Origin: Thermodesulfovibrionales bacterium
GTDB lineage: Bacteria > Nitrospirota > Thermodesulfovibrionia > Thermodesulfovibrionales > UBA1546
Assembly (NCBI GenBank): GCA_030018605.1
Contig: JASEHP010000001.1
Location: forward strand, 1-36,459
DNA: 36,459 bases
Reading direction: 5' to 3'
In this document: piece after piece, positions 1,426 to 13,943 of the stretch
How the letters are laid out: every line of letters begins with the position of its first letter
Numbering within the stretch: position 1 is the first letter of the stretch
The notes under the pieces: generated by a model
Seen by the model: only the letters and a program-made list of their open reading frames with translations
Databases searched by the model: none
What the model was told of the DNA's origin: nothing
Program-made: the position numbers and the translations under genes

Positions 1426-1692
1426 CTAAGAAGCGCCTGCGCCTTCTTCGGAAGCGTTCACATCCGCCCCTTCGAGGCTGTAATAAGAAAGATAGACTCC
1501 GCGCGCGCCTTCCACATCTTTGAGCGTATCGAGCTCCTTCTTCATTTCGGCAGGGGTGTCCCGCTCTATAAGGAAAACGACCTTTTCCTCCTTGAGGTCT
1601 GTTACCTCTATCTTCCTTTTCTTCAGGTCGTTTACGACTACCTCCACATGTCCCTCGTCATGTGCCTCAATATAACCGCTTGCTACAAGCAT
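1426..1692 (-). CDS. napD: NapD-like TAT-proofreading chaperone
   Basis: 88 aa, with a NapD-like pattern (hydrophobic N-terminal strand, VEV, ...VVFLIE..., ...LKDVEGARGVYLSYYS). It is the last gene after napG and napH. Confidence 0.7.
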   Translation of the reverse strand: MLVASGYIEAHDEGHVEVVVNDLKKRKIEVTDLKEEKVVFLIERDTPAEMKKELDTLKDVEGARGVYLSYYSLEGADVNASEEGAGAS

Positions 1693-1774: not shown

Positions 1775-2635
1775 TTATTTAAGTGATAACTTTACCAGTT
1801 TCCCTTTTGTCTCACAGCCCTCTGCACACCTGCCGCAGTAGATGCAGTTTATATCTCTGAGTCCGGGTTGGTCAATGTGTCGGGCTATTTTCACGTTCAT
1901 ATAACATAATCTATCACAGAGGTTGCACTCGCCGCACTCTCCCGGGTAGTATTTGAGTTTAAGGAGACTTACCTTATTAAACAATCCGTAAGTCTTTCCA
2001 ACAGGGCATAATACCCTGCACCATGTCCTCGGGAATATGTATTCAAAGACAAGCAGAAAGACTATAACCCCGCCTGAATATACAAGCACCGAAGGCTCAA
2101 ACGGCAGATTAAGGGCAAGAAAAACACCGCCTGTAATGAATCTAAAAAAGTTTGTGAGATGAGAGATATAGTTTGTAAAGAACGGGATGCCTAACAGTCC
2201 TGAAACAACAAGCAGTCCGGCTGCTATCCCATAACCAATCTTTGGTGATGCCTTGACCTTTACCTTTGACCAGTTTTTGAATCCGTCCACAATCTCAAAA
2301 AGGAAATCCATGGGGCATACCCAGCCGCAGAATGCCCTGCCGAATATGAGATAAATGCCAATGATTGGAACAACTGCGATTAGGGTTGTAGTTGTAAAAT
2401 CCTTTGATGCTGCCAGACTCTCAAAATAAGCAAATACATCAATGAGCTTTACAAACCATCTCGCCAGAGAACCTGAGAGTCCGCCAACCAGCGCCTTTAC
2501 ACGAAAAAACTGCAACAAAAAGAATATTAGGACGCTGAACATCACAAAACGCCTGAGATTGGATAGCTTCAGTAATGAGTTCGGAGTTCGGAGTTCGGAG
2601 TTTAGTGTCTCTTTATCTTTTAACTCATAACTCAT
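1775..2635 (-). CDS. napH: NapH-type membrane-bound polyferredoxin (quinol dehydrogenase membrane subunit)
   Basis: Several TM helices, two CX3CP motifs (CGWVCP, CRVLCP), and two C-terminal CX2CX2CX3C clusters (CGECNLCDRLC, CIYCGRCAEGC). The ATG at 2635 has AGGAG 9 nt upstream and follows the napG stop. The tracked GTG at 2671 is an alternative start. Confidence 0.85.
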   Translation of the reverse strand: MSYELKDKETLNSELRTPNSLLKLSNLRRFVMFSVLIFFLLQFFRVKALVGGLSGSLARWFVKLIDVFAYFESLAASKDFTTTTLIAVVPIIGIYLIFGRAFCGWVCPMDFLFEIVDGFKNWSKVKVKASPKIGYGIAAGLLVVSGLLGIPFFTNYISHLTNFFRFITGGVFLALNLPFEPSVLVYSGGVIVFLLVFEYIFPRTWCRVLCPVGKTYGLFNKVSLLKLKYYPGECGECNLCDRLCYMNVKIARHIDQPGLRDINCIYCGRCAEGCETKGKLVKLSLK

Positions 2636-2649
2636 AACTCTTGACTCCT
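2577..2649. repeat. Two heptamer arrays in inverted orientation: (GAGTTCG)x3 + GAGTTTA, a 17-nt spacer, then (AACTCAT)x2 AACTCTT GACTCCT
   Basis: Read directly. The arrays lie at the napG/napH junction, in the first ~20 codons of napH, and encode MSYEL...SELRTPNS. Confidence 0.9.
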
Positions 2650-2657
2650 GACTGTCT

Positions 2658-3428
2658 TTAACGGTATTCACGTTCTACCAATCTCCCCTTTGCCATAATC
2701 TGGGGCAGATTCTGTCCGTAAACAATGTTGTATCTCTCCTCGTTGGACATTGCAAGCAGTCTCTTAAACTCATCCACATATGGCGTTTTAACTTTCTCAT
2801 ACTGTCTTTCGGTAATCACCTTTATAGCAGAACCGCCGAGCGGGCAGTATTTGACACAGAGGCCGCAGCCGACGCAGTTTTCATTTATATACGGCTGGTT
2901 GCCCCATTCGCCGTTGTAAAAATCAAAGATATTTGCGCCCATAGGACATGCCTTGCTGCATGAAAGACAGACATCGCCGTTCCAGCCAAAACAGAGGCCG
3001 AAATCAATAAGCGCCATTCCCATTGTAACTTTCTCTTTTTTGAGGTTTTTCAGAGCGTCTGTTGGACAATGCTTGGGACACTCCATGCACAGTTCACAAG
3101 GGAAATCCCTCATGTCCTTGATATACGGCGTGCCGAAGTTTCTTATGTCTTTGATTCCGGCAACTGCAATGGCGTCGTATTTCATCGTATGGCATACATT
3201 CACGCACACGCCGCAGCTTATGCACTTTGCCCTGAACTCTTTTTCAGGCAAAGCGCCCGGCGGCCTTATAATGCCGCCGACCTCTATATTCGGAAGAGGA
3301 CCCTCGAATTCTTCCTTAGCTGCGTAAGCATTCCTTTCCAAAAGATAAAAAGGGCTGCCTATTACAGCAGCGCTGCCTGTTATCAGCGATGCCTTCAAAA
3401 AATCTCTTCTGGTGAAATGATTCTGCAC
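2658..3428 (-). CDS. napG: NapG-type periplasmic ferredoxin with four [4Fe-4S] motifs (TAT-exported)
   Basis: Twin-arginine signal (TRRDFLKASLITGSAA) and four Cys clusters: CISCGVCVNVC, CELCMECPKHCP, CLSCSKACP, CVGCGLCVKYCP. Directly upstream of napH. Confidence 0.85.
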   Translation of the reverse strand: MQNHFTRRDFLKASLITGSAAVIGSPFYLLERNAYAAKEEFEGPLPNIEVGGIIRPPGALPEKEFRAKCISCGVCVNVCHTMKYDAIAVAGIKDIRNFGTPYIKDMRDFPCELCMECPKHCPTDALKNLKKEKVTMGMALIDFGLCFGWNGDVCLSCSKACPMGANIFDFYNGEWGNQPYINENCVGCGLCVKYCPLGGSAIKVITERQYEKVKTPYVDEFKRLLAMSNEERYNIVYGQNLPQIMAKGRLVEREYR

Positions 3429-3443
3429 AGCCCTTACAGCGCT

Positions 3444-4382
3444 TTATTTTTTCTCAGGGGCAGCGCTGCCTTTTGCCTTATCTTTCCCGCTGTCCTTTAT
3501 GCCCTTTGAGGCAAGGTATTTGTCCACTTCCGCCTTGTTAATTTTAACCTTGTACATCTTTTTTATATCCTGCAGATATTTGTCTAATATCTCCTTCTGC
3601 TTCTCCTGCAGCAGAACCCTTCTAATATCTTCCTTTATATTGTTGATGTCAACATTTTTGCCTTTTTTCCTGTCAGTAACCTTGATAATGTGATAGCCGA
3701 ATTCGGTCTTGACAGGCTGGCTTACATCGCCCTTCTTCAATGCCCTGATGGCATTGTTGAACTCAGGCGGCATTTTGCCATCCTCGAAGGAGCCGAGATC
3801 GCCGCCGAGCGCTGCACTCTGTTTGTCTTCAGACAGCTCTTTTGCCACCTTTGCAAAATCCTCACCTTTTTTAATCCGCTCATGCGCCTTCTTTATAGTC
3901 GCCTCGGATTTGGTCATGATATGGCTCAACCGGATTTGTTCGGGAGATGCTAACTCGCCCATATTCTTCTTGTAATACTCTTTTATCTCGCTGTCGGAAA
4001 CCTTAACCTTCTGCGACAGCTCTTTTTCGAGAAGCATCTGTATTATGGTGATCTTTTTATAGTATTCGAGCTTTTTCTGAAGGGCGCTGTCCTTGTCTAT
4101 GCCTTTTTTTACGGCCTCCTGGTGCAGGGCTTCCTTGTTTGCCATGTCCTCGAGGAAACGCATAAACTGGTTGGAATCCTGCAAAAATGCCTCCCGTACA
4201 TCCTCCGGCATACTCTGAAGCTCTTTCTCAATATCATCTTTGGTTATGCCGATTTCATTCAGTTTGACCAGCGCTGTCCCGGTTTGCTTGCCGGGGTCAG
4301 CCTTCTTTGGCTGCTCGCCTTCCTTTTTGGCGCATGAAGCTATAAGCAAAAGACTAACAAAAAACAATAAAAACTTTTTCAT
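3444..4382 (-). CDS. Parvulin-type peptidyl-prolyl cis-trans isomerase lipoprotein (PrsA/SurA/PpiD-like)
   Basis: Lipobox (LLLIASC), a long helical chaperone-like region, then a parvulin core (RLSHIM...GGDLGSF...FGYHIIKV). Confidence 0.85.
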   Translation of the reverse strand: MKKFLLFFVSLLLIASCAKKEGEQPKKADPGKQTGTALVKLNEIGITKDDIEKELQSMPEDVREAFLQDSNQFMRFLEDMANKEALHQEAVKKGIDKDSALQKKLEYYKKITIIQMLLEKELSQKVKVSDSEIKEYYKKNMGELASPEQIRLSHIMTKSEATIKKAHERIKKGEDFAKVAKELSEDKQSAALGGDLGSFEDGKMPPEFNNAIRALKKGDVSQPVKTEFGYHIIKVTDRKKGKNVDINNIKEDIRRVLLQEKQKEILDKYLQDIKKMYKVKINKAEVDKYLASKGIKDSGKDKAKGSAAPEKK

Positions 4383-4513
4383 CCATCCTCCTGTTTAATT
4401 TTTTTGTTCTTCAGGCCATTAAAACCACATATTATATTATAACCCATTGAAGTTATCTAAACAAATCAGCTATTGCATCAATCCGTCTCCTGTTGAGTTT
4501 TTATCCATCAAGC

Positions 4514-5458
4514 TTACTCTTCTGCTGTCTTCAGACGAATGGCGTCATAATGCAGCCCCTGTTCTTCGTAAAGTACAGACAGAGCCGCTCTGATTAGTTT
4601 TGCCTCTTTGCTGGCAGGACCCTTAATCTCATCAATAATTGCAAGCGCCTTTCTGTAATACATTTCGCTCTCTATATATTTCTTCTGTGTATGATAATTG
4701 GCGGCAATGCCAATCAATGTCTTTACATAATCAATATGCGCGATGCCAACGGCATTCTCTATGATATGCATTGCTCTTTTATAATACTGCTCTGCCTCTT
4801 CAAACATCTTCATAGTCCTGTGCATCCCAGCAAACAAATACAGCGCTTCTGCCATCTCTGCGCCGTATGGATTGCCATGCGACTCAAGCATCTGTATAAC
4901 CGCTTTAAGCGATAGTTCCGCTTCTCTGAACATGGCCCTGATAATATATAGTTCTGCGCGATGAATTAAAATATCTGCAACTCCGGGATATTTTATGCTC
5001 TCGCGGTTCAGCGCCATAGGATCTAACCCTTTTATGGCAAATGCTTTCATCAGCACAGTCTCTGCCTGCCTGAATAATTTGTCCGCCTTTGTGTATTGCC
5101 GTAATCCCATATAAATCCTCGCCTGCAAAGCATATGCAAGGGCGGCATTCAGATGAACATCTCCGAAATCCTGCGTTGCTGTTTCCAATGCCTTTGTAGA
5201 AGTCTCAAGGGCGCAGGCAAGTTTGCCTGCTTTGCGCAGAGCCTCAGCGGTCTCATATAACTTCTTCCAGTTATCAACCTTTGCCTGCCCAATATCTTCC
5301 GGCGCAGGAGCAGGATTTCCACCTGCAAGATATACCCCGCAGGCAACTGCCTCTATAGGATCTTTCTCCTGATTTACAGGTGAGGGTACTTCTCCTGCAT
5401 AAACTGTATTGCCAAACAAAACAAATAACAACCCCACCAAAATCCCTGAAAATCTCAC
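4514..5458 (-). CDS. Secreted TPR-repeat protein
   Basis: N-terminal signal peptide (ILVGLLFVLFGNTVYA). Repeated A/Y/L-rich 34-residue-like helical repeats (e.g. ...EAEQYYKRAMHI..., ...ESEMYYRKALAI...). Confidence 0.75.
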   Translation of the reverse strand: MRFSGILVGLLFVLFGNTVYAGEVPSPVNQEKDPIEAVACGVYLAGGNPAPAPEDIGQAKVDNWKKLYETAEALRKAGKLACALETSTKALETATQDFGDVHLNAALAYALQARIYMGLRQYTKADKLFRQAETVLMKAFAIKGLDPMALNRESIKYPGVADILIHRAELYIIRAMFREAELSLKAVIQMLESHGNPYGAEMAEALYLFAGMHRTMKMFEEAEQYYKRAMHIIENAVGIAHIDYVKTLIGIAANYHTQKKYIESEMYYRKALAIIDEIKGPASKEAKLIRAALSVLYEEQGLHYDAIRLKTAEE

Positions 5459-5598: not shown

Positions 5599-8500
5599 CT
5601 ATACAACAATCTTTCCGGGCTCCGCCTGTCTGCCCTTTGTTTTTCCCTTGTATATCTTTACTGCAAACATCTTGAAGTCTGCCTGGAAGCTGAACGGATC
5701 AAAGGCATCCCTCATTATCATGTTGATGAGCTTGAACTCGTCAAACCACGGGATAAAGACATAGTCATGTCTCGGACCGCCGGTCGCTTTCTGGACATCA
5801 AGTATCTTAGCCGGAAGCTCTATCTTACCTCTCGGCGATTCAACGATAACCGAATCACCATTCTTAATATTGAGCTTCTTAGCAAGTATCTCGTTGATCT
5901 CGACATAAGCGCCGGGAACTGCGCGTGTCAGTTCAGGAACCCTTGCGGTCATGGAGCCTGAGTGCCAGTGCTCAACAACACGGCCTGTACATGCGCCGTA
6001 TTTGTAATCGGTGGTGTCAATGATCAGAAGCTTGCTTCCGTCAGCCTTTGTGTATTCATGCTTAAGGTTATGGAATTCAGCAGGGCTTAATGCTATGTTC
6101 TTCAGGGCATTCATGTCCTTGTTCGGATCTCCGACAACATTGACAGTGTATTTTGCCTTCACATCAAAGGGTAGTGCGCTATTCTCATTTACCTTGCTGG
6201 GATTAAAGGCCCTCTCAAGAACCTCAACGGTATTATGCCTTACAAACTGTTTGCCGTCGAACTTGCATGCCCACCATGGGTTTGCCCATGCTACAGCCCT
6301 GCCGTCCCAGCCCGGAGCCTTTCTGGTTTTTCCGTCCGGAGTCTTGATATCTACCATGCCGTTGATAAAGGCATTAGAGTTGTAGAAGCTTGCATACCAT
6401 CCGGAAGGAAGGTTTTCCGCCCTGTGGTATTCCGCATCATTCTTCATGTCATTGATGTTTTTCTCAAGCCATGAGCCATAGACCGGATTAAACTCCTTCA
6501 TATTCTTCATATAGAAGGCGGTCTTACCGTCTATATGCGGGTCATATGGATAGGCATATTGTATGCTGGAGACGTACTTGTCGTATCTCTTCTTTACATC
6601 GGCATTGGTGTGATACTCTGCGGGCAGGGGAATCCTGTAGCCGTGGTTCTGCTCAAGGAGCATCTTCCTGTTCATACCGCTAAAGTCATAGCCTGTGCCC
6701 TTGGAGAGGGCCATGAGTTCTTCCCAAATGTTGGTGGAGAACTTTCTGTTCCAGTCCTTTGTTTTGCCTGCCTCAATAGTCTTTTTGAGCCAGTCTGCGC
6801 CGTCGTATTCCGCCGGCCAGAACATGGAGACATGCCCTTTAGGGACGAGTCCCTTTTCCTCAAGCCTTCTCATGATACATGCAAAGATGGTGTGGTCAGG
6901 GAGTGTATCTCCATAAGGCTCAATGACCTGTTTGACAATCTGATACCTTCTCTCAAGGTTTCCGTATATGAATTCCTTTTCATACCATGAGGATGCGCCG
7001 AGCACCACATCAGAAACCATTGTGGTTGCATTCGGGAATGCCTCAAGGGTTACGGTAAGCGGCCATGCCGCTCCTTTGTGAGCGCCTGCCATTGCAAGCC
7101 TGTAGGGCCATGAATATGGAAGGCTCTGCCCGGAGTTAACCGTGGAGTTTATCATTATCTTTATCTGTCCTGCTCCAAGCCTTCTGAACATCTCAACTGT
7201 ATGGGGACCGGGCTTGTCGTGGATCTTGATTTTATCAAGTTCAGCTTTTATTGCTTCTGCTGACATGCCTTTCTTCTTCAAATAAGCTTCAGCCCTGCCT
7301 TTCCATATACCTTCAACTGCTGCCCTGTGCAGAGGATTAGCAACAAGCCTTCCATAAGGAAGCGCATGGCACAATGCTCCCGGCGCCCTGATTCCGCCGC
7401 AGGCATTGGGCTGTCCTGTAAAGCTGAAGGAATGCCTTCCGGGTTTTACTGTCTGTCCTGTGATAAGGTTGATCATGTGTAAAGAGGCGTTTGTCCATGT
7501 TCCTTGAAGCTTCTGATTAACGCCCATACACCATGCAGACAGTGTGTATCCTTCAGCATACCATTTAGCAGCAAGCCTCACTGCATCTGGCCCGCTAATC
7601 TTCTTCCATGTCCTTGTTGCTTTGTCATAGAGGAGAGGGGATTCACCCTCAAATATCGCATCGGAGACCTTTTCAGGTTTGTAGTCTTCAAGGAACTTCA
7701 GGAATACGGCAAAACCCTTGTAGAGGTCTTTCATTACATCTTCCTCTGAGGCATATTTGTTTTTCAGGTTTGGATAAGTCTTTCTCGGCTCTGCTGAATA
7801 TGTCAAATCCCAGGCTGCGTCCCTCGTGCCGCCATATGTGGTCTTTACCCATGTCTTCTTCACATCCTCGTGTATTCCAAAGCTTACATGTCTTTCAATG
7901 AACTTCTTGTCAAGGTATTTCCACTTTGCATCAACTGTGCCTTTCTCCACATCATACTTTGCGCCGTCAAGCTCATGGGTAATAACATACGCTATTGAGT
8001 TGAGAAGCACGAGGTCCCTGCCTGTTGCAAACGGAAGCCATAAATCGGCAATTGTTCCGGAACGGGTCTTTCTCGGGTCAGCGAGGATTACCTTTACATT
8101 TGGTTTTTTTGCCTTCAATGCTGCAATCCTGTTGAAGATTATGGGATGTCCTTCTGCTGTGTTACTTCCTATCAGGAAGAATGTATCGGCAGTTTTGCCA
8201 AAATCAGGGTCTGGAACATCAATATCGTCAAGGCTTCCGTAAGGCTCGTCTTTTCCAAATGTATAAAGATAGCCCACGACTGCGGATGCCATACACATTC
8301 TCGGCTGCCCTTCTACCGCGTTATTTGCAAGCATGCCGCCGCCCTTGAGGGTTTTATTCATAATGTGGGTCTCTTCCGTTCCTGCCTGACCGCTGCCGTA
8401 ATATGCAACACTGTGTTTGCCGTTTTCTTTGACTGTCTTTTCCACTGCATCAGCCACAAACTCTATGGCATCTTCCCACGGTATGAGAACAAAATTCTCT

Positions 8501-8934
8501 TTCAGGTCAACCTCAGATGGTTTTATCCCATGCGGATCTTTTGTGTTTTTCCCTTCAAGAACCCTCGGGCAGTCCTTCAGGTCAGGCTTTCCTGTTTTGG
8601 GATTAATCAATTCCTTTCTTACATAAGCGCCCTTTGGCCTGTCCTTGTACATGAGCGCCTTATGGACATAAAATCCTTTTGTGCAGAGGACGCCCCTGTT
8701 CACAGGGCTCTTGAGGTCTCCTTTAATTGCAATAACCTTTGTTACCTTGCCTGCTGCGTCAACTTCACAGTCTGCTATCATAGTGCACCCAACTGCACAA
8801 TATCTGCACTGTCCCACTGGAAATGTTTTTATAGAACCAGCAGCAAACAGCATTTCCGGCTTAGCAATCCCGGCCCCAGCGGCAGCAGCGGTTATAGCGC
8901 TTGCCCTTAGAAAATCTCTTCTACTGAGTTTCAT
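5599..8934 (-). CDS. napA: Periplasmic molybdopterin oxidoreductase, NapA-like catalytic subunit, unusually long (1111 aa)
   Basis: TAT signal ([19 protein letters not shown]) and an N-terminal CX2CX3C...C FeS motif (CRYCAVGC...[11 protein letters not shown]). There is a NapA-type Mo-ligand segment ([20 protein letters not shown]). C-terminal NapA signatures are present: [20 protein letters not shown] and [20 protein letters not shown]. These motifs align to E. coli NapA as I recall it, but the protein is about 280 aa longer. Confidence 0.85.
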   Translation of the reverse strand: [1111 protein letters not shown]

Positions 8935-8952
8935 CTATGCCTCCTTTAGTTT

Positions 8953-9477
8953 TTACTTCTTGCCTTTTTTACTGGTTTTGCCAGCCGTTGGCTGTATGGT
9001 AAAACCGTCAGCGGTTATTGCATCTCCGAATGGAGAGTAATCGCCATTGGCAGCTATTGCCATTACTTTTAATTCTACGTCAACTTTTTCCTGAGGCGCC
9101 TTCCATTCAAATGCCCATGACCTGCGCTCAGAACCTTCTAATGTCTGTGTCAGATAGGAGTCTGAAAGCTGGGTGTTTTTCTTGTCAGATACTATTAATT
9201 CTCCTGCAGACGCCTTAACTGAAAATCCGCCCTGCACCTCACTCATGCTTTTTGTTTTGCAGTCTACACTCACGGTAAGTTTATATGTCATTCCCGGCTC
9301 ATATTGTTTTGGAATGCCTGTGACTTTAATAGTGGCTGGCGCGCTTGCTCCAGTGTGGCATGTATAGCATTCAAAATTTGGAGCGCTATTATTACTCGTG
9401 AAGCCTATTGAACCGAATAAGAGGGTAATGCTGAACAATACAATTAAATACATAACAGTCTTTTTAGTCTTTGCCAT
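8953..9477 (-). CDS. Secreted monohaem c-type cytochrome with a beta-rich domain, in the NapB position
   Basis: Single CXXCH (CYTCH) right after a signal peptide or anchor. The rest is strand-like (TYKLTVSV, GGFSVKA, WAFEWKAP, VELKVMAIAANGD). The ATG at 9477 has AAGGGGTGG upstream. The stop is 18 nt before the napA-like start. Confidence 0.7.
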   Translation of the reverse strand: MAKTKKTVMYLIVLFSITLLFGSIGFTSNNSAPNFECYTCHTGASAPATIKVTGIPKQYEPGMTYKLTVSVDCKTKSMSEVQGGFSVKASAGELIVSDKKNTQLSDSYLTQTLEGSERRSWAFEWKAPQEKVDVELKVMAIAANGDYSPFGDAITADGFTIQPTAGKTSKKGKK

Positions 9478-9580: not shown

Positions 9581-9612
9581 TTAAAAATAAAAGGGGGAGC
9601 TTGCGCTCCCCC
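9581..9612 (-). terminator. Rho-independent terminator downstream of the octahaem cytochrome gene
   Basis: GGGGGAGC / GCTCCCCC stem with a 4-nt loop, followed on the minus strand by TTTTATTTTT. It sits 15 nt after the stop codon. Confidence 0.8.
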
Positions 9613-9626
9613 AAATCTATCATTTA

Positions 9627-11396
9627 CTACTTTCCTGCTGGCATTGCTGCTGCTGCTCTTTTGTCAGCAATTGCCTTGTTCAGGATGTCAATGCCTTTCC
9701 ATGAAAGAACAACTGACCTTGCGAGTGTTACCTTGGCGTTCTCAATGTTATGGAAACCATCGGAATTCTCGCCGGTCCACCATTCCCAGTACATGTGCGC
9801 ATCTTCGTGGATCTTTCTAACTTCATTAAGTGTCTTCACATCAACACCCCAGTCTTTTGCGCGCTGGAATGCATCAACAAGTTCCCTCAGCCAGACCTCT
9901 GCCTTTCTCATGTTCTGCTTGACGTAGTTCTTCGCAGAGTCTGCGGCATAGCCGGCATCATGTGATGTCCAGTCCGGATGGCAGGTAAGGCATGGCTTCC
10001 ACTCCATCGCCCTTGGGGAAACATGGAAGTGGGAAGAATAGGTCTTGCCATCCTTGCCCTTCTTCTTGCCTGCTGTATGGCAGGTTGTGCAGGTTGCTCC
10101 AGCCTTTGCGTGAGTAGAGTTGTAGAATGCCTCTGCCTCAGGGTGCTGCGACTTCCAGAGCTTTGCGCCTGTGATATAGTGGGCTAAATCAAAATATTTC
10201 CACTTTTCAAGGTGCTTTTTAAAGGTCTCATCAACAATCTTATGCTTTTCAACCTTTGCCAGTCCCTTGAACGGGAAGTGGTTGGTCCTTCTGTCAGTTG
10301 CAAAGTCAAGGGCTACAGGCGGCTTGCCCCATTCAGACTTTTCATAGTCAAAGTGGAGACCGCAGTTGTACTCAACATGGCACTGACCGCACTGAAGTAT
10401 TGGGTCATACTTGCTGAGGATTGCAATCTTCCTCTCATGTCCGCGGAATCCGAGGCCGTCTTTATTGCTGTAAACCTTGATATCTGCCTTTCCGGGGTAG
10501 CCCTCATGCCAGAGTGTGTCGGTCTGGGTTGTGAGCGCCTCTATAAGAGCGTCTCTCACAATCCTCGGTTTTGCCGCATGCGGGTCATGGCAATGAATAC
10601 ATGGCAGAGCGTTCCTCAGATACTTCACCGCATTGTAAGCAGGATTTCCTGCTCTGCTGATGTCAGAGGTCTTTGGTGAAGGATCGCCCATGTACGGCCA
10701 TGCAAGATGGTCGTCAGATGATTTACATTTTAAACAAACAGGAACTGCCGCAGGAGCTGTCCTTTCCTGAAATGCCTTCTTGGGAGCCTTGAGGTCAACA
10801 TCAGGATATGCATCATAGAGGACATCCCATGCCTTGGGGGCTATGCCGCTCTTGTCTATTACATACTTGAAACCATTCTTTGACTTGAACCTTCCGCCGT
10901 AAGACCTGTCATTAATCAGATGGTCAATAAGCATATACTTGTGGCTTCTGGTCTCATTGTGGCTGATTTCAAAGGCATAAGGTCTGATGAGGGTTTCCCA
11001 GAAAGGCGAGCGGGACTTGGGGTCGCCCTTGTCAAACTGAGCCTTTTTCTCATAGTTGTGACCGATGAAACTTGCGTGCTGGTCTTTGTGACACTTGCCG
11101 CATGCCTCGTGGTCAGTGTTGGTTGAAGGTCTGCTCTTCACGTCTGCAAGGTGTTTGTCAATGCCATCATGACAGTTGATGCAGTTTACAGTCTTGTGGA
11201 TTCCATTTGTGTGGAAATCCTTAATAAGGGCATGGCATGCGTAGCATGTCTCTACCTTTACATCTTTTACTGCAGCTTTTGCTGCGGCTTTTGCAGGGAC
11301 AGCTTTCTTCTGGGCATCAGCACTCGTATAATAGACGCCTCCTACTATGACAAGCGCCAGAACTAAAATAAATGATACATAAATCTTTTTACTCAT
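9627..11396 (-). CDS. Octahaem cytochrome c nitrite reductase (ONR/TvNiR-like, NrfA-related)
   Basis: Seven CXXCH motifs (CYACH, CINCH, CGKCH, CIHCH, CGQCH, CTTCH, CLTCH) plus one CXXCK (CLKCK) as the fourth motif. NrfA-like segments are CLKCKSSD and CGQCHVEYNC. N-terminal signal/anchor. The ATG at 11396 has AAGGAGG 8 nt upstream; the tracked start at 11447 is less likely. Confidence 0.85.
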   Translation of the reverse strand: MSKKIYVSFILVLALVIVGGVYYTSADAQKKAVPAKAAAKAAVKDVKVETCYACHALIKDFHTNGIHKTVNCINCHDGIDKHLADVKSRPSTNTDHEACGKCHKDQHASFIGHNYEKKAQFDKGDPKSRSPFWETLIRPYAFEISHNETRSHKYMLIDHLINDRSYGGRFKSKNGFKYVIDKSGIAPKAWDVLYDAYPDVDLKAPKKAFQERTAPAAVPVCLKCKSSDDHLAWPYMGDPSPKTSDISRAGNPAYNAVKYLRNALPCIHCHDPHAAKPRIVRDALIEALTTQTDTLWHEGYPGKADIKVYSNKDGLGFRGHERKIAILSKYDPILQCGQCHVEYNCGLHFDYEKSEWGKPPVALDFATDRRTNHFPFKGLAKVEKHKIVDETFKKHLEKWKYFDLAHYITGAKLWKSQHPEAEAFYNSTHAKAGATCTTCHTAGKKKGKDGKTYSSHFHVSPRAMEWKPCLTCHPDWTSHDAGYAADSAKNYVKQNMRKAEVWLRELVDAFQRAKDWGVDVKTLNEVRKIHEDAHMYWEWWTGENSDGFHNIENAKVTLARSVVLSWKGIDILNKAIADKRAAAAMPAGK

Positions 11397-11617
11397 CCAA
11401 AATACCTCCTTATTGAAGTGATGCATCTTTTTTGCTGCTTGGACCATTTTACTGCTTTGACCATTTTGTTGTGCTTCTCACCCCCCTTATCTTATTTGTG
11501 GTAATCAATTTTATAATAATAGCACATTAATATAATTTTTGGGTTAGTAAATGTGCGGTTAATTTGTGTAAAGATTCGGTAAAAGTGTTTTTAGGAGAAA
11601 ACGTCTGAAAATGCGGA

Positions 11618-12295
11618 CTACTGTCTGAATTTGTATCCGGCGCCGGACACAGTCAAAATGTACTCCGGCTCGGAAGGATTTTTTTCTATCTTATGCCTGA
11701 GATGCTGGATATGGACGTCTATGACTCTGCTCCATGAATATATTTCAGATTCCCTCCATATCTTTTTTCTGATAAATTGCCTGCTGATTACTTCGCCTCT
11801 GTTTGTGATAAAGAGATGCAGCAGTTCATATTCCTTCGGGGTGAGTTCAATCTCTTTGCCTTTGACTTTAACTGTGTGAGCGCTGAAATTAACTTCCAGA
11901 TTATTGATTACGATTGTGCTGTCAACAGGCATGGTCCTTTTGAGGCACGCTCTTATTCTCGCTATGAGTTCAAGCGTTTCAAAAGGTTTTACTATGTAAT
12001 CGTCAGCGCCGCTTTCAAAGCCCATTACCTTATCAAAGACGCTGTCTTTTGCTGTGAGCATAATAATGGGTATTCTGGGATACTGGTCTTTCAATAACCT
12101 GCATATCTGGATTCCGTCGCTGTCAGGGAGCATGAGGTCAAGTATTATAATATCCGGCAGCTGATTATTCAGTATATCGTGCGCTTCTGCCCAATTGGCG
12201 GCTGTGACAGCATCAAACCCGTACAACTCAAAGTTTGCCTTAAGCACTTTTAATATGTCAGGGTCATCATCTACAACAAGCAGTTGTTTTTTCAT
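11618..12295 (-). CDS. OmpR/PhoB-family response regulator
   Basis: Receiver domain (LVVDDDPDI...IILDLMLPDSDG...LTAK) plus a winged-helix C-terminus (LTPKEYELL...EYILTVSGAGYKF). Overlaps the kinase gene stop. Confidence 0.9.
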   Translation of the reverse strand: MKKQLLVVDDDPDILKVLKANFELYGFDAVTAANWAEAHDILNNQLPDIIILDLMLPDSDGIQICRLLKDQYPRIPIIMLTAKDSVFDKVMGFESGADDYIVKPFETLELIARIRACLKRTMPVDSTIVINNLEVNFSAHTVKVKGKEIELTPKEYELLHLFITNRGEVISRQFIRKKIWRESEIYSWSRVIDVHIQHLRHKIEKNPSEPEYILTVSGAGYKFRQ

Positions 12296-13943
12296 CCAGA
12301 AAAACCTCTTTTCTTGTCATCGGTACAGTGAACCAGAAGCGGCTGCCTTTGCCTTCAGCAGTCTTTAGCCCTATCTCTCCGTTATGCGCTTCTATTATGC
12401 CTTTGCATATTGCAAGTCCCAGCCCTGTGCCGTCTTTCACGCCTCTTGAGTAGAATTGTCTGAATACCATCTCTTTTTCAGCCTCAGCGATACCATATCC
12501 CCTGTCCTCTACGCTTGCATTTGCATATCCGTTCGTTCCGGCGAGCGTGACAATGATATCGGATGATTCAGGACTGAAGTTTAACGCATTGGACAGAAGA
12601 TTTGTCAGCACCTGCTTTATCCTGTCTTCATCAGCATGAACTGTTACATCCTCTCCCCTGAGTTCTATATTGACTTTTTTCCCCTCCGCCAATGACCTGA
12701 AGCCTGTGATAACCTCATCAAAAACATCGTTCAGGTTTATTTCTTTAAAATGCATTTCAAATTCACCAAGTTCTATCCGCTCGTAGTCAATCACGTTATT
12801 TACCAGCCTTATCAGCCTCTCGGCATTATTTTTTATTACCTCAAAAAATACTTTAAGGTCTTCCTCATTCTCTTTTCCGTGCATTGAAAGTCTTACGGAG
12901 AGGTAATCCATTGCTCCTTTTATGGACGTAAGGGGCGTCCTTAATTCGTGTGAGATATTTGCAATAAAAGCGGATTTTGTTTTATTTAATCTCAACAGGC
13001 TCTCGTTTTTTTCTGTAAGTTCCCTCGTAGCTGTGATTATCTTATCATGGAGACACCTATGGTATTCATCAATAGACTTTGCCATGTCTATAAAAGATTT
13101 GCTTAACTCTTCAAGTTCGTCATTTGTTTTGATAACCGGGATATCAGGATTGCCGTCTTTTGAGAAAGCAAGCATGAGGGTTCTAATTTTTTTTATGGGG
13201 CTTATGACAAGTCGTTTTGTTGTCATAAACAACACGGCGATGAGCACCGCAACGGTAATAATGCTGCCGAACAGCATGTATTTTCTGTCAGAATGTATTA
13301 CATTGAATGCATAGTCCATCGGGATGGATACACTTATGGCTCCTCTTATGTCGCCGACATTATAGCCCTGCTTGTCATGGCAGTGAAGACATGCCTTTTC
13401 AACATAAAGCGGGGCAATGTATCTGAAGTAATAAGAGCGTCCAATCTTTTCAACAGTTGATGAGTCTTTTAGTTTTTTTGTCTCAAAGTCTTGAAGCGCT
13501 TTCTTTTCAAAGGCGTCAGGGGCATTTTCGGGATTCATGAGTTTAAGGCTGGTTATATGAAACCAGAAGAGCCCTTCTTTCGCAGCGTACATGGAAAGTT
13601 CTTTTGTGACCATGGCAGGATTTCTCTTAACATACCTCATGCCCTCGGTATCGACTATCTCTGATTTCATGCCTTTAAGATAAGGGTTTGGCTTTATCCA
13701 TGGCAGCCTTTCCACAAATACCCCTCCGTGGTCAGCGATCCACCTTCTTGTAATTACCAGCTGCTGGAACAGCGCCTTTGCCTGCATCTCTATCTGAGTG
13801 AGCACAAGCCTCTCGTGTCTTTTGGAAATGACGATAAGTGTTATTCCCATTACGGCAGCAAGGATTATGATTGTGGAGATTATATACTTCAGGCTAAGGT
13901 TTATCCGCATCTGAAACATCCATCGGAACAGCTGTTCCGGCAA
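12267..13943 (-). CDS. Sensor histidine kinase with an extracytoplasmic c-haem (CXXCH) sensor domain, HAMP, HisKA and HATPase domains
   Basis: One TM, then a ~190-aa domain ending in CLHCHDKQGYNVGDIRGAISVSIP (DUF3365-like by recollection), then a second TM. H-box SHELRTPL, with G-boxes in the C-terminus. The exact start is uncertain (TTG 13943, ATG 13919 or 13910; no clear SD). Confidence 0.85.
   Translation of the reverse strand: MPEQLFRWMFQMRINLSLKYIISTIIILAAVMGITLIVISKRHERLVLTQIEMQAKALFQQLVITRRWIADHGGVFVERLPWIKPNPYLKGMKSEIVDTEGMRYVKRNPAMVTKELSMYAAKEGLFWFHITSLKLMNPENAPDAFEKKALQDFETKKLKDSSTVEKIGRSYYFRYIAPLYVEKACLHCHDKQGYNVGDIRGAISVSIPMDYAFNVIHSDRKYMLFGSIITVAVLIAVLFMTTKRLVISPIKKIRTLMLAFSKDGNPDIPVIKTNDELEELSKSFIDMAKSIDEYHRCLHDKIITATRELTEKNESLLRLNKTKSAFIANISHELRTPLTSIKGAMDYLSVRLSMHGKENEEDLKVFFEVIKNNAERLIRLVNNVIDYERIELGEFEMHFKEINLNDVFDEVITGFRSLAEGKKVNIELRGEDVTVHADEDRIKQVLTNLLSNALNFSPESSDIIVTLAGTNGYANASVEDRGYGIAEAEKEMVFRQFYSRGVKDGTGLGLAICKGIIEAHNGEIGLKTAEGKGSRFWFTVPMTRKEVFLDEKTTACCR

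What the first reader, a model, noticed from the sequence alone, without database searches (positions are those of the whole stretch)
8953..9477. Monohaem, beta-rich cytochrome sits where NapB should be
A 174-aa secreted protein is translationally coupled to the NapA-like gene (18-nt gap). It has a single CYTCH site right after its signal sequence. Beyond that it looks like a beta-sandwich (TYKLTVSV, GGFSVKA, WAFEWKAP, VELKVMAIAANGD).

It is not like dihaem NapB or tetrahaem NapM. From memory the pattern resembles Reeler/DOMON-like haem domains, but I cannot verify that here. It may be a new type of NapA redox partner.
Basis: partly seen in the sequence, partly recalled or inferred. Interest (0 to 1): 0.6.

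Follow-up and report, generated by a model that had tools for sequence, protein, structure and literature searches.

The report
Reeler-fold monohaem partner of long NapA
A small secreted single-haem protein with a Reeler-type beta-sandwich fold is encoded directly in front of an unusually long periplasmic nitrate reductase in every genome examined that has that enzyme, and it is the best candidate for the enzyme's so far unknown electron donor, in place of the usual NapB.

Summary
On the minus strand (9477..8953) lies a 174-aa gene with a Sec-type signal peptide and one CYTCH motif (residues 37-41). An 18-nt gap with a Shine-Dalgarno sequence separates it from a TAT-exported 1111-aa NapA.

The protein is not NapB, NapM or NapC. 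It passes NCBIfam's uncharacterised "choice-of-anchor V" domain model (97 bits, cut-off 42). An AlphaFold model (pLDDT 83) matches the F-spondin Reeler domain best. A PDB profile search and weak Pfam Reeler hits agree. DOMON is not supported.

Linkage is complete in the samples. In 33 of 34 public loci the gene sits -4 to 193 nt upstream of a full-length long NapA; the 34th contig ends there. Among 452 sampled genomes, 20 have long NapA and the same 20 have this gene. None of the 17 in the window's own phylum has a NapB match over the cut-off.

In Desulfurivibrio dismutans the orthologue was detected by proteomics only in nitrate-grown cells, though papers call that operon napAGHD with "electron donor unknown".

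Most likely it is a haem-c electron carrier: quinol, then NapH/NapG (or Rieske/cytochrome b), then this cytochrome, then NapA. Haem binding and the donor role are inferred, not shown.

This scan had already noted the pairing on this window (e1-3928591) and on another genome (e1-4126544).

The parts
8953..9477 (-). Gene for the 174-aa secreted monohaem protein with a Reeler-type / choice-of-anchor V domain; first gene of the nap operon
   Evidence: ORF and translation. NCBIfam NF041895 at 97.3 bits, cut-off 42. 36 homologues. Structure model and Reeler fold match.
9397..9477 (-). Signal peptide, about residues 1-25/27: Lys-rich n-region, hydrophobic core, conserved S-x-G before the mature 'NNSAP' N-terminus
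   Evidence: Sequence and conservation pattern in A1. The cleavage site is inferred, not predicted by a tool.
9355..9369 (-). CYTCH, the single c-type haem attachment motif (residues 37-41)
   Evidence: Invariant C37, C40 and H41 in A1 and in all 47 sequences of the NapA-type clade. Sits in helix 35-42 of the model.
9145..9147 (-). Codon 111 (CAG, Gln), where all other verified NapA-linked orthologues have His; candidate haem-pocket or ligand position
   Evidence: His is conserved family-wide, but about 10% of members have Gln, Tyr or Asn.
9061..9063 (-). Codon 139 (Met), specific to the NapA-type clade; candidate distal haem ligand
   Evidence: Met in 39 of 47 sequences of the NapA-type clade, against Ala/Ser/His/Phe in the rest of the family.
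8935..8952 (-). 18-nt intergenic spacer with an AAAGGAGG Shine-Dalgarno sequence for napA
   Evidence: Sequence. Orthologous gaps run from -4 to 193 nt, median 31.5.
9583..9612 (-). Terminator-like hairpin (8 bp, 7 G-C) plus T-run between the octahaem gene and the small cytochrome gene
   Evidence: Fold -20.6 kcal/mol, z = -3.9.
5599..8934 (-). 1111-aa TAT-exported long NapA (Mo-bisMGD nitrate reductase catalytic subunit), the proposed electron acceptor
   Evidence: Pfam Molybdopterin, Molydop_binding, Fe4S4 and TAT signal. Best NCBIfam hit is NapA at 435 bits, below the equivalog cut-off. Orthologues are 65-90% identical in all loci.
2658..3428 (-). NapG-like TAT-exported poly-[4Fe-4S] ferredoxin, the proposed upstream donor
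   Evidence: Conserved downstream of NapA in the loci whose contig extends that far.
1775..2671 (-). NapH-like membrane Fe-S quinol dehydrogenase subunit
9627..11447 (-). Octahaem NrfA-like (CXXCK) cytochrome, probable nitrite reductase; a neighbour in Nitrospirota loci only, not part of the conserved core
   Evidence: Pfam Cytochrom_C552. No homologue adjacent in L028, L034, L035, L037 and L039; L036 has only a weak partial match about 5.7 kb upstream.
3444..5458 (-). TPR protein (4514-5458) and parvulin-type PPIase lipoprotein (3444-4382) inserted between napA and napG; present in only a subset of loci

Best explanation
The gene encodes a Sec-exported periplasmic protein of about 15 kDa. One haem c is proposed to be attached covalently to CYTCH near the mature N-terminus, and the haem is proposed to pack against a Reeler-type beta-sandwich.

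The protein is proposed to be the dedicated electron-entry partner of the long (about 1110-aa) NapA lineage, doing the job that dihaem NapB or tetrahaem NapM does in other Nap systems. The proposed path is: menaquinol, then NapH (membrane), then NapG (periplasmic poly-ferredoxin), then the Reeler-fold cytochrome c, then the NapA [4Fe-4S] cluster, then Mo-bisMGD, then nitrate. In Kryptonia/Bacteroidota-type clusters a Rieske/cytochrome b module encoded just after napH could feed the same cytochrome.

What is shown:
- The gene is real and conserved, and the protein has the features of a secreted protein.
- The fold is Reeler-like.
- The CxxCH motif is invariant in this clade.
- Co-occurrence and adjacency with long NapA are complete in the samples, and exclusive of NapB.
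- The protein is expressed in nitrate-grown D. dismutans.

What is inferred: covalent haem binding, the axial ligands, physical binding to NapA, and the direction and partners of electron transfer.
For: Anatomy:
- Signal peptide, single invariant CxxCH and beta-sandwich.
- The window's genome has CcsA-type cytochrome c maturation genes.
- It has no NapB at 94% completeness.

Linkage:
- In 33 of 34 loci from Nitrospirota, Desulfobulbales (including Desulfurivibrio dismutans), Ignavibacteriales, Bacteroidota and Ca. Kryptonium, the gene lies on the same strand directly upstream of a full-length long NapA. The 34th contig ends after the gene.
- The gaps run from -4 to 193 nt, with four ATGA overlaps.

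Two-way co-occurrence:
- In 301 genomes of the window's phylum, 17 have long NapA and the same 17 have the gene.
- In 151 Desulfobulbales, 3 have long NapA and the same 3 have the gene.

Complementarity with NapB:
- 24 genomes of the phylum have a strong NapB match. None of them has long NapA, and where checked the NapB gene lies a few kb from an ordinary (about 930-aa) NapA-like gene on the same contig.

Core versus shell of the cluster:
- The octahaem gene, TPR protein, PPIase and the two-component regulator vary between loci.
- The small cytochrome, NapA, NapG and NapH travel together.
- A terminator-like hairpin separates the gene from the octahaem gene in the window.

Precedent:
- NapB-less clusters carry another cytochrome gene immediately upstream of napA. 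An example is Caldithrix abyssi, with napM, napA and napG, then napH, Rieske and cytochrome b genes further downstream (PMC5317091).
- The Kryptonia-type loci here have the same layout with this gene in the napM position.

Open question it would fill:
- Thorup et al. 2017 state that the electron donor of this NapA type is unknown (PMC5516251).
- A 2026 Nap review lists no such partner (PMC13223375).
Against: - There is no biochemical evidence of haem, of a complex with NapA, or of electron transfer.
- No distal haem ligand can be assigned. His111 is Gln in the window itself, and Met139 is missing in 8 of 47 clade members. Two database representatives of the clade have neither, though their genomic context is unknown.
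- About half of the wider choice-of-anchor V family carries CxCH, with one-residue spacing. From memory, this is not a known substrate for the cytochrome c maturation systems. The conserved C...CH could therefore serve another cofactor or a disulfide in the family at large.
- The model is least confident around the motif (pLDDT 55-72 for residues 21-50), and no coordinates were available to inspect a haem pocket.
- NapG might reduce NapA directly, as has been proposed for other NapB-less systems, which would leave this protein a different role.
- Adjacency and co-inheritance (distance correlation r = 0.74) are expected of any two genes in one mobile operon. They do not prove physical contact.
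Confidence: 0.55

Rival explanations
1. It is a haem protein dedicated to the long-NapA system, but it is not the obligatory electron donor. It could be a structural or stabilising subunit for NapA's extra segments. It could sense or protect against nitrite or NO. Or it could be a side branch, with NapG reducing NapA directly.
For: - Direct NapG-to-NapA transfer has been proposed for NapB-less systems (PMC5317091).
- No universal sixth ligand is present, and the window's own protein has Gln at the conserved His position. That would suit a five-coordinate, ligand-binding haem.
- NapA here has about 280 extra residues of unknown role.
Against: - The mutually exclusive distribution with NapB and the napM-like gene position fit functional replacement of the donor better.
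- Where known, small monohaem periplasmic proteins encoded with reductases are usually electron carriers (general knowledge).
Confidence: 0.2
2. The CxxCH does not carry haem. As in the CxCH members of the choice-of-anchor V / Reeler family, the Cys pair and His form a disulfide or a non-haem metal site. The protein would then be a non-redox accessory, assembly or docking factor for long NapA.
For: - 90 of 187 family sequences examined have CxCH, and a few have spacers of 3 to 6 residues.
- Distant members sit in non-respiratory contexts, some as parts of 700-900-aa surface proteins.
- Eukaryotic Reeler domains are not known to bind haem (no paper found).
Against: - Every member of the NapA-type clade keeps the exact CxxCH spacing (47 of 47).
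- The 'CH' pair is universal while the position of the first Cys varies. That is the pattern of known haem-c motif variants, not of a structural disulfide (plus general knowledge).
- The host has cytochrome c maturation genes and many c-type cytochromes. From memory, these systems attach haem to accessible periplasmic CxxCH motifs with little further specificity.
Confidence: 0.12
3. It is a general periplasmic shuttle rather than a NapA-specific subunit. It would distribute electrons from the quinol-oxidising modules (NapGH, Rieske/cytochrome b) to both NapA and the octahaem nitrite reductase, which has no NrfH-type partner nearby.
For: - In most Nitrospirota loci the octahaem gene lies immediately upstream.
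- No NrfH or NapC gene is in the cluster.
- In Caldithrix, a shared carrier was proposed for NapA and epsilon-Hao.
Against: - The gene stays with NapA where no octahaem gene is adjacent (L028, L034, L035, L037, L039).
- A terminator-like hairpin separates it from the octahaem gene in the window.
- It is never found without long NapA in the 452 genomes sampled.
Confidence: 0.1

Closest known systems
NapB (dihaem cytochrome c subunit of NapAB, Pfam PF03892)
   Same: - Small, Sec-exported, periplasmic c-type cytochrome encoded in the nap operon.
- Proposed role as direct electron donor to the NapA [4Fe-4S] cluster.
- Its distribution complements this protein: genomes have one or the other.
   Different: - One haem instead of two.
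- No sequence match to the NapB models.
- Beta-sandwich fold instead of a small helical one.
- Pairs only with the 1110-aa NapA lineage.
NapM (tetrahaem cytochrome of napMADGH / napCMADGH clusters, e.g. Desulfovibrio desulfuricans, Caldithrix abyssi)
   Same: - Same gene position, immediately upstream of napA, in a NapB-less and NapC-less cluster that also has napG and napH.
- In Caldithrix and in the Kryptonia-type loci here, that cluster also has Rieske and cytochrome b genes.
- Same proposed role as periplasmic donor.
   Different: - Monohaem, not tetrahaem.
- Unrelated fold and family.
NCBIfam NF041895 'choice-of-anchor V domain' (also the MXAN_6652 family)
   Same: - True family membership: 97.3 bits against a cut-off of 42, covering profile positions 2-146 of 150.
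- RefSeq already names the D. dismutans orthologue this way.
   Different: - The family is uncharacterised and mostly consists of proteins with C-terminal anchors (PGF-CTERM-like, transmembrane, T9SS-like tails) or of large surface proteins.
- The NapA-type clade has no anchor, a strict CxxCH, a clade-specific Met139 and a fixed genomic partner.
Eukaryotic Reeler domain (Pfam PF02014; F-spondin structures 2ZOT, 2ZOU, 3COO)
   Same: - Best structural match: Foldseek E 7e-7, TM-score about 0.6 on the target, 19-20% identity.
- Best PDB profile match.
- Sub-threshold to threshold-level Pfam matches over nearly the whole domain.
- Shared 'Y-x-P-G-x-x-Y' and 'W-x-A-P' motifs appear in the alignment.
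   Different: - The window's own protein gets no Pfam Reeler hit.
- Reeler domains are extracellular animal or plant modules with no known haem.
- This protein has a CxxCH haem motif in the N-terminal segment.
Cytochrome f (large domain)
   Same: Analogy only: a beta-sandwich c-type cytochrome with the CxxCH close to the mature N-terminus.
   Different: No significant similarity. Two family members gave Apocytochr_F_N E-values of 0.064-0.18. The cellular context is different.

Membership tests
NapB (PF03892) | Sequence match to the NapB model | tested here: not met
   No Pfam or NCBIfam NapB hit for the protein. No NapB match anywhere in the window's genome, while the E. coli control was found.
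NapB (PF03892) | Two CxxCH haem motifs | tested here: not met
   A single CxxCH (CYTCH, residues 37-41). Only three Cys in the protein.
NapM / NapC-NirT tetrahaem cytochromes | Four CxxCH motifs and a match to multihaem models (PF03264, cytochrome c3/c7) | tested here: not met
   One motif and no such hits.
c-type cytochrome (generic) | CxxCH motif in a Sec-exported protein, in a host with cytochrome c maturation | tested here: met
   Invariant CxxCH, signal-peptide features, and CcsA-type assembly genes in the window's genome.
c-type cytochrome (generic) | Covalently bound haem demonstrated | not testable with these tools
   Needs haem staining, mass spectrometry or spectroscopy.
choice-of-anchor V domain (NCBIfam NF041895) | Score above the curated cut-off over the whole domain | tested here: met
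   97.3 bits against a cut-off of 42, E 8.7e-28, residues 12-156 on profile positions 2-146 of 150. Same result on the genome.
Reeler domain (Pfam PF02014) | Score above Pfam's gathering threshold (21 bits) | tested here: inconclusive
   The window protein gets no hit. 20 of 33 family members hit with best E 3.3e-4. Orthologue P0005 scores 21.6 bits, others 12.7-19.2 bits, over profile positions 25-125 of 131.
Reeler domain (Pfam PF02014) | Reeler beta-sandwich fold | tested here: met
   The top five Foldseek PDB matches are all F-spondin Reeler domains, E 7e-7 to 1.4e-5, TM about 0.6 on the target. The PDB profile search ranks the same protein first.
DOMON / EB_dh / CDH-cytochrome haem domains | Sequence or fold match to a DOMON-type haem domain | tested here: not met
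   No such Pfam family among the hits of any of the 33 members at E up to 10. None among the 50 best Foldseek PDB matches.
Subunit of the long-NapA nitrate reductase system | Conserved adjacency and two-way co-occurrence with long NapA | tested here: met
   33 of 34 loci. 20 of 20 genomes with long NapA, against 0 of 432 without it, have a strong match to this gene.
Subunit of the long-NapA nitrate reductase system | Physical complex with NapA and electron transfer to it | not testable with these tools
   Needs co-purification, kinetics, or a multimer structure prediction with cofactors.

The most novel reading that the evidence does not exclude
The protein founds a new structural class of c-type cytochrome, a haem c carried on a Reeler-fold beta-sandwich, and forms an obligate heterodimer with long NapA.

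The C-x(1-6)-C-H motif is conserved throughout the choice-of-anchor V family, which has more than 3,000 clusters. If the motif binds haem there too, thousands of bacterial and archaeal surface proteins would be unrecognised haem or redox proteins. The animal and plant Reeler domain, found beside DOMON and cytochrome b561 in ferric-chelate reductase 1 (from memory), would then descend from a prokaryotic redox module.
Probability: 0.3. Interest if true: 0.8.

Novelty: new variant of a known kind. Interest (0 to 1): 0.62.

Why it matters
Periplasmic nitrate reductases are central to nitrate ammonification and denitrification. Their known electron-entry proteins are NapB, NapC, NapG/H and, tentatively, NapM.

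The long-NapA lineage occurs in Desulfurivibrio, many Thermodesulfovibrionia and other Nitrospirota, Kryptonia, Ignavibacteria and Bacteroidota. It was described in 2017 as a novel NapA type whose "electron donor is unknown", and its operon is still written napAGHD.

This analysis gives that question a concrete candidate, and the candidate can be tested in cultured organisms (D. alkaliphilus, D. dismutans). The operon would then be better written as five genes.

If the haem is confirmed, the protein would also add a beta-sandwich (Reeler) scaffold to the few non-helical c-type cytochrome folds. It would give a first functional foothold for the large uncharacterised choice-of-anchor V family, and possibly for the origin of the eukaryotic Reeler domain.

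Tried and rejected
- Pfam on the window protein gave no family at E up to 0.1. The Reeler signal only appeared when all family members were scanned.
- Direct sequence search of the PDB found nothing significant.
- I considered DOMON, EB_dh and cytochrome f membership. DOMON and EB_dh gave no hits at all. Cytochrome f gave only insignificant E-values.
- I tried to assign the sixth haem ligand from conservation. His111 is family-wide but replaceable (Gln, Tyr, Asn), and it is Gln in the window. Met139 is clade-specific but not universal. No assignment was possible. The model's coordinates are not exposed, so the distance from the haem motif to these residues could not be measured.
- I looked for transcript data on the D. 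alkaliphilus orthologue in the Thorup supplements. The nap rows are not in the held text.
A 4-sequence alignment worked.
I obtained a genome handle first.
- I rejected the idea that the gene belongs to the octahaem nitrite-reductase unit. A terminator-like hairpin lies between them, and the gene stays with NapA where no octahaem gene is adjacent.
- The window's putative NapD (1426-1692) gets no Pfam hit at E up to 0.001, so I do not list it as a part.
Full report
**1. What is at 8953-9477**

The feature is a gene on the minus strand, from the ATG at 9477 to the TAA at 8955-8953, encoding 174 aa. A GGGGTG-type ribosome-binding site precedes the ATG.

- The product starts with a Lys-rich stretch and about 18 hydrophobic residues.
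- In 33 aligned family members, a conserved S-x-G lies just before a nearly invariant 'N-N-S-A-P-x-x-E-C-x-x-C-H' block (A1). This fits a cleaved Sec signal with the haem motif about ten residues into the mature protein. The cleavage site is my inference.
- CYTCH (residues 37-41) is the only CxxCH. The third Cys (C73) is not conserved.
- The 18-nt spacer to the next gene's ATG (8934) contains AAAGGAGG.
The only addition is the strand.

**2. Surroundings**

All genes from 13943 down to 1775 are on the minus strand. In order they are:

- a histidine kinase with a Tll0287-like periplasmic domain;
- an OmpR-type response regulator;
- an octahaem NrfA-like cytochrome with a CLKCK motif;
- the small gene;
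- a 1111-aa TAT-exported molybdopterin enzyme whose best NCBIfam hits are the NapA models (435 and 405 bits, below the equivalog cut-offs);
- a TPR protein;
- a parvulin-type PPIase lipoprotein;
- a TAT-exported NapG-like ferredoxin;
- a NapH-like membrane Fe-S protein.

A terminator-like hairpin lies between the octahaem stop and the small gene (9612-9593, 8 bp with 7 G-C, T-run, -20.6 kcal/mol, z = -3.9). The small gene is therefore most likely the first gene of the nap transcription unit.

The window's genome is 1.72 Mb and 93.6% complete. It has one copy of the gene, no NapB, only a weak NapC/NirT-like match on another contig, and CcsA-type cytochrome c maturation genes.

**3. What family and fold**

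- Pfam finds nothing for the window protein.
- NCBIfam places it in NF041895, 'choice-of-anchor V domain' (97.3 bits, cut-off 42). I found no paper that names this family in its text.
- An AlphaFold2 model built on A1 is confident (mean pLDDT 83.2, pTM 0.70). It has a short helix carrying the CxxCH (residues 35-42) and then ten beta-strands.
- Foldseek against the PDB puts five chains of the human F-spondin Reeler domain on top (2ZOT, 3COO, 2ZOU; E 7e-7 to 1.4e-5, TM about 0.6 on the target, 18-20% identity). Generic Ig-like, cohesin and pilin domains follow.
- A sequence profile of A1 against all PDB sequences ranks the same Spondin-1 Reeler chains first (E 0.011-0.019). The aligned motifs are 'Y-x-P-G-x-x-Y-x-v-t-L' and 'W-x-A-P'.
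- Pfam's Reeler model matches 20 of the 33 family members (best E 3.3e-4) over profile positions 25-125 of 131. One orthologue (P0005) reaches 21.6 bits against a cut-off of 21.
- No DOMON, EB_dh or cellobiose-dehydrogenase-cytochrome match appeared anywhere.

No solved structure of a close relative exists.

**4. The wider family**

An exhaustive HMMER search of 1.84 billion representative proteins found 3,296 clusters at E up to 1e-3. Only 16 of them are at E up to 1e-30, which is the NapA-type clade and its nearest kin.

Among the 150 best representatives plus the first homologues:

- The 'C-H' pair is universal.
- The first Cys lies three positions upstream of the second (CxxCH) in 84 sequences and two positions upstream (CxCH) in 90. 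A few have longer spacers.
- Many CxCH members end in PGF-CTERM-like or other anchor tails. Some are domains of 700-900-aa proteins.
- His111 is conserved across all groups but is replaced by Gln, Tyr or Asn in roughly a tenth of sequences.
- Met139 is specific to the NapA-type clade (39 of 47 sequences).

Every verified NapA-linked orthologue has His111 and Met139, except the window's, which has Gln111 and Met139. The 94%-identical P0001 has His. I cannot assign the distal ligand.

A universal C-H with a variable first Cys is the pattern seen in known haem-c motif variants. That favours haem. The CxCH half of the family keeps a non-haem reading alive.

**5. Is it tied to long NapA?**

*Forward test.* A scan of one genome per species (185,579 species) with A1 returned 34 loci. 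They come from Nitrospirota and Thermodesulfovibrionales MAGs, Dissulfurispiraceae, Desulfurivibrio dismutans AMeS2 and other Desulfobulbaceae, an Ignavibacteriales MAG, a Bacteroidota MAG and Ca. Kryptonium thompsonii.

- In 33 of them a full-length 1110-1112-aa NapA (65-90% identical to the window's) starts directly downstream on the same strand. The 34th contig ends after the small gene.
- NapG and NapH follow in the loci whose contig extends that far.
- Gaps between the two genes run from -4 nt (ATGA overlap, four loci) to 193 nt, median 31.5.
- The octahaem gene, TPR protein, PPIase and regulators come and go. No octahaem homologue is adjacent in L028, L034, L035, L037 or L039, and L036 has only a weak partial match several kb upstream.
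- The conserved core is therefore small cytochrome, NapA, NapG and NapH.

*Converse test.*

- Among 301 genomes sampled across the window's phylum, full-length long NapA (74-100% identity) occurs in 17. Strong matches to the small protein (E up to 1e-60) occur in exactly those 17, each adjacent to NapA.
- The 14 genomes with only ordinary NapA- or Fdh-like hits have none.
- Among 151 genomes of the D. dismutans order, 3 have long NapA and the same 3 have the small gene. One of these is a 3.1-Mb single-contig genome.
- In total that is 20 of 20 against 0 of 432. One distant family member (E 4e-8) sits elsewhere.
- These are samples of related genomes, so no P-value is attached.

*Complementarity with NapB.*

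- Strong NapB matches (92 bits or more) occur in 24 of the 301 genomes, and in none of the 17 long-NapA genomes.
- In G114, G123 and G127 the NapB gene lies a few kb from an ordinary NapA-like gene (open frames of about 930 aa) on the same contig.

*Co-inheritance.* Pairwise distances of the small protein and NapA correlate (r = 0.74, Mantel 0 of 999). The small protein evolves about twice as fast (mean divergence 0.51 against 0.24). This shows co-inheritance, not contact.

**6. Expression and literature**

- Thorup et al. 2017 described the D. alkaliphilus operon as napAGHD. They noted the lack of napB, called the enzyme 'a novel type of NapA ... similar to that of Ca. Kryptonia', and wrote that 'its electron donor is unknown' (PMC5516251).
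- The 2025 D. dismutans paper also writes NapAGHD (RS11645-11630). [quoted passage not shown]
- That protein was detected only in formate+nitrate cells (riBAQ 1.9e-5) and not in sulfur-grown cells. NapG and NapH show the same pattern. NapA is about 100-fold higher by riBAQ on nitrate (PMC12142623 Table S1).
- Its coordinates match locus L034.
- A May 2026 review of Nap lists 12 nap genes and four operon types, gives C. jejuni NapA (924 aa) as the largest structurally studied, and does not mention this partner (PMC13223375).

**7. Extra context that bears on mechanism**

- In Ca. Kryptonium (L039), related metagenome contigs (L044-L046) and a Bacteroidota MAG (L037), napH is followed by Rieske [2Fe-2S] and cytochrome b genes. 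A 493-aa protein without a Pfam match precedes the small gene.
- Rieske/cytochrome b modules normally reduce a c-type cytochrome. The small protein is the only cytochrome c gene in those clusters.
- Caldithrix abyssi has the same overall layout: napM, napA and napG, then napH, Rieske and cytochrome b genes further downstream. There tetrahaem NapM sits in the upstream position, and its authors proposed NapM as the donor to NapA (PMC5317091).
- The closest non-NapA clade consists of proteins of about 190-260 aa, most with a Thr-rich linker and a C-terminal transmembrane anchor. In the one informative contig (L042) such a gene lies beside a divergently transcribed cluster: NapC/NirT-like tetrahaem, 4Fe-4S protein, NrfD-type membrane subunit and monohaem.
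- More distant members lie in non-respiratory neighbourhoods.

**8. Most likely mechanism**

The protein is exported by Sec and receives one haem c at CYTCH from the Ccs system. In the periplasm it docks on folded, TAT-exported long NapA and passes electrons to the NapA [4Fe-4S] cluster. It receives those electrons from NapG (of the NapGH quinol dehydrogenase), or from a Rieske/cytochrome b module where one is present.

- Shown: the gene, the fold class, the invariant motif, the strict two-way linkage, the exclusion of NapB, and expression on nitrate.
- Inferred: the haem, its ligands, the complex, and the electron path.

I put about 0.55 on this full statement. My separate estimates are about 0.9 that the protein is functionally dedicated to the long-NapA system, about 0.8 that it carries haem c, and about 0.85 that the fold is Reeler-like.

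**9. Rivals**

- A haem protein with a non-donor role, with NapG reducing NapA directly (0.2).
- A non-haem accessory that uses the Cys/His site otherwise, as the CxCH relatives may (0.12).
- A shared shuttle that also serves the octahaem nitrite reductase (0.1).

Each rival is set out with its refutation test in its own section.

**10. Comparison and novelty**

- It works like NapB and sits like NapM, but it is a member of neither (defining features tested and not met).
- It is a member of the choice-of-anchor V family.
- It is a structural and remote sequence relative of the Reeler domain. The window protein itself does not pass the Pfam threshold.
- I file it as a new variant of a known kind: a Nap system with a previously undescribed type of cytochrome partner.
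- RefSeq already names the domain. I re-derived the pairing independently.
- New in this analysis, as far as I can see:
  - the two-way co-occurrence counts;
  - the complementarity with NapB;
  - the Reeler fold evidence;
  - the family-wide motif analysis;
  - the proteomic detection;
  - the Rieske/cytochrome b context.

Noticed in passing
window 9145-9147 (codon 111): The window's protein has Gln where all other verified NapA-linked orthologues, including a 94%-identical one, have His. Gln is also the commonest alternative at this position across the wider family. This may be a real variant or a MAG consensus error.
   Followed up: partly
window 9583-9612 (minus strand): A strong terminator-like hairpin with a T-run lies between the octahaem nitrite-reductase-like gene and the small cytochrome gene. 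This implies separate transcription units for nitrite and nitrate reduction.
   Followed up: yes
L039 15673-17162; L045 13736-15228; L044 10226-11715; L037 15758-17287: In Ca. Kryptonium and Bacteroidota-type loci the cluster (small cytochrome, NapA, NapG, NapH) is followed directly by Rieske [2Fe-2S] and cytochrome b genes with no cytochrome c1 gene. This mirrors the Caldithrix abyssi nap cluster.
   Followed up: partly
L045 6440-7921; L039 8377-9855; L044 2912-4390; L036 8441-9967; L037 8356-9867: A conserved 493-aa secreted protein with no Pfam match lies immediately upstream of the small cytochrome gene in the Kryptonia, Ignavibacteria and Bacteroidota loci. By its sequence style it could be an outer-membrane porin, perhaps for nitrate or nitrite.
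   Followed up: no
proteins P0058-P0186: About half of the choice-of-anchor V family carries G-C-x-C-H (one-residue spacing) instead of CxxCH. Many of these have PGF-CTERM-like tails that suggest archaeal surface proteins, and a few have CxxxCH or Cx4-6CH. Whether these bind haem, another metal, or nothing is unknown.
   Followed up: partly
L042 2230-8723: A member of the nearest non-NapA clade (244 aa, CIQCH, Thr-rich linker, C-terminal transmembrane helix) sits next to a divergently transcribed cluster: NapC/NirT-like tetrahaem, 4Fe-4S protein, NrfD-type membrane subunit, monohaem cytochrome c and another Fe-S protein.
   Followed up: partly
L051 7983-9442: Two tandem paralogues of the family have a C-x4-C-H spacing (CAEAGCH, CAQSGCH) and lie in a non-respiratory, Bacteroidota-like neighbourhood.
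   Followed up: no
window 1426-1692 (minus strand): The 88-aa ORF after napH, taken as NapD by first-stage notes, gets no Pfam hit at E up to 0.001. Homologous loci carry one or two weak NapD-like ORFs at the same place.
   Followed up: partly
window 12267-13943 (minus strand): The histidine kinase upstream has a Tll0287-like periplasmic domain (PF11845, 85 bits) containing a CxxCH. The same kinase and regulator pair accompanies the nap cluster in many Nitrospirota loci, on either side of it.
   Followed up: partly
G301:C3:16688-17182; G326:C1:2214506-2215009: The Desulfurivibrio orthologues lie in open frames of 214-216 aa, and their profile match is split in two (profile positions about 6-127 and 117-160). 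This suggests a short insertion or a locally divergent segment in this lineage.
   Followed up: no
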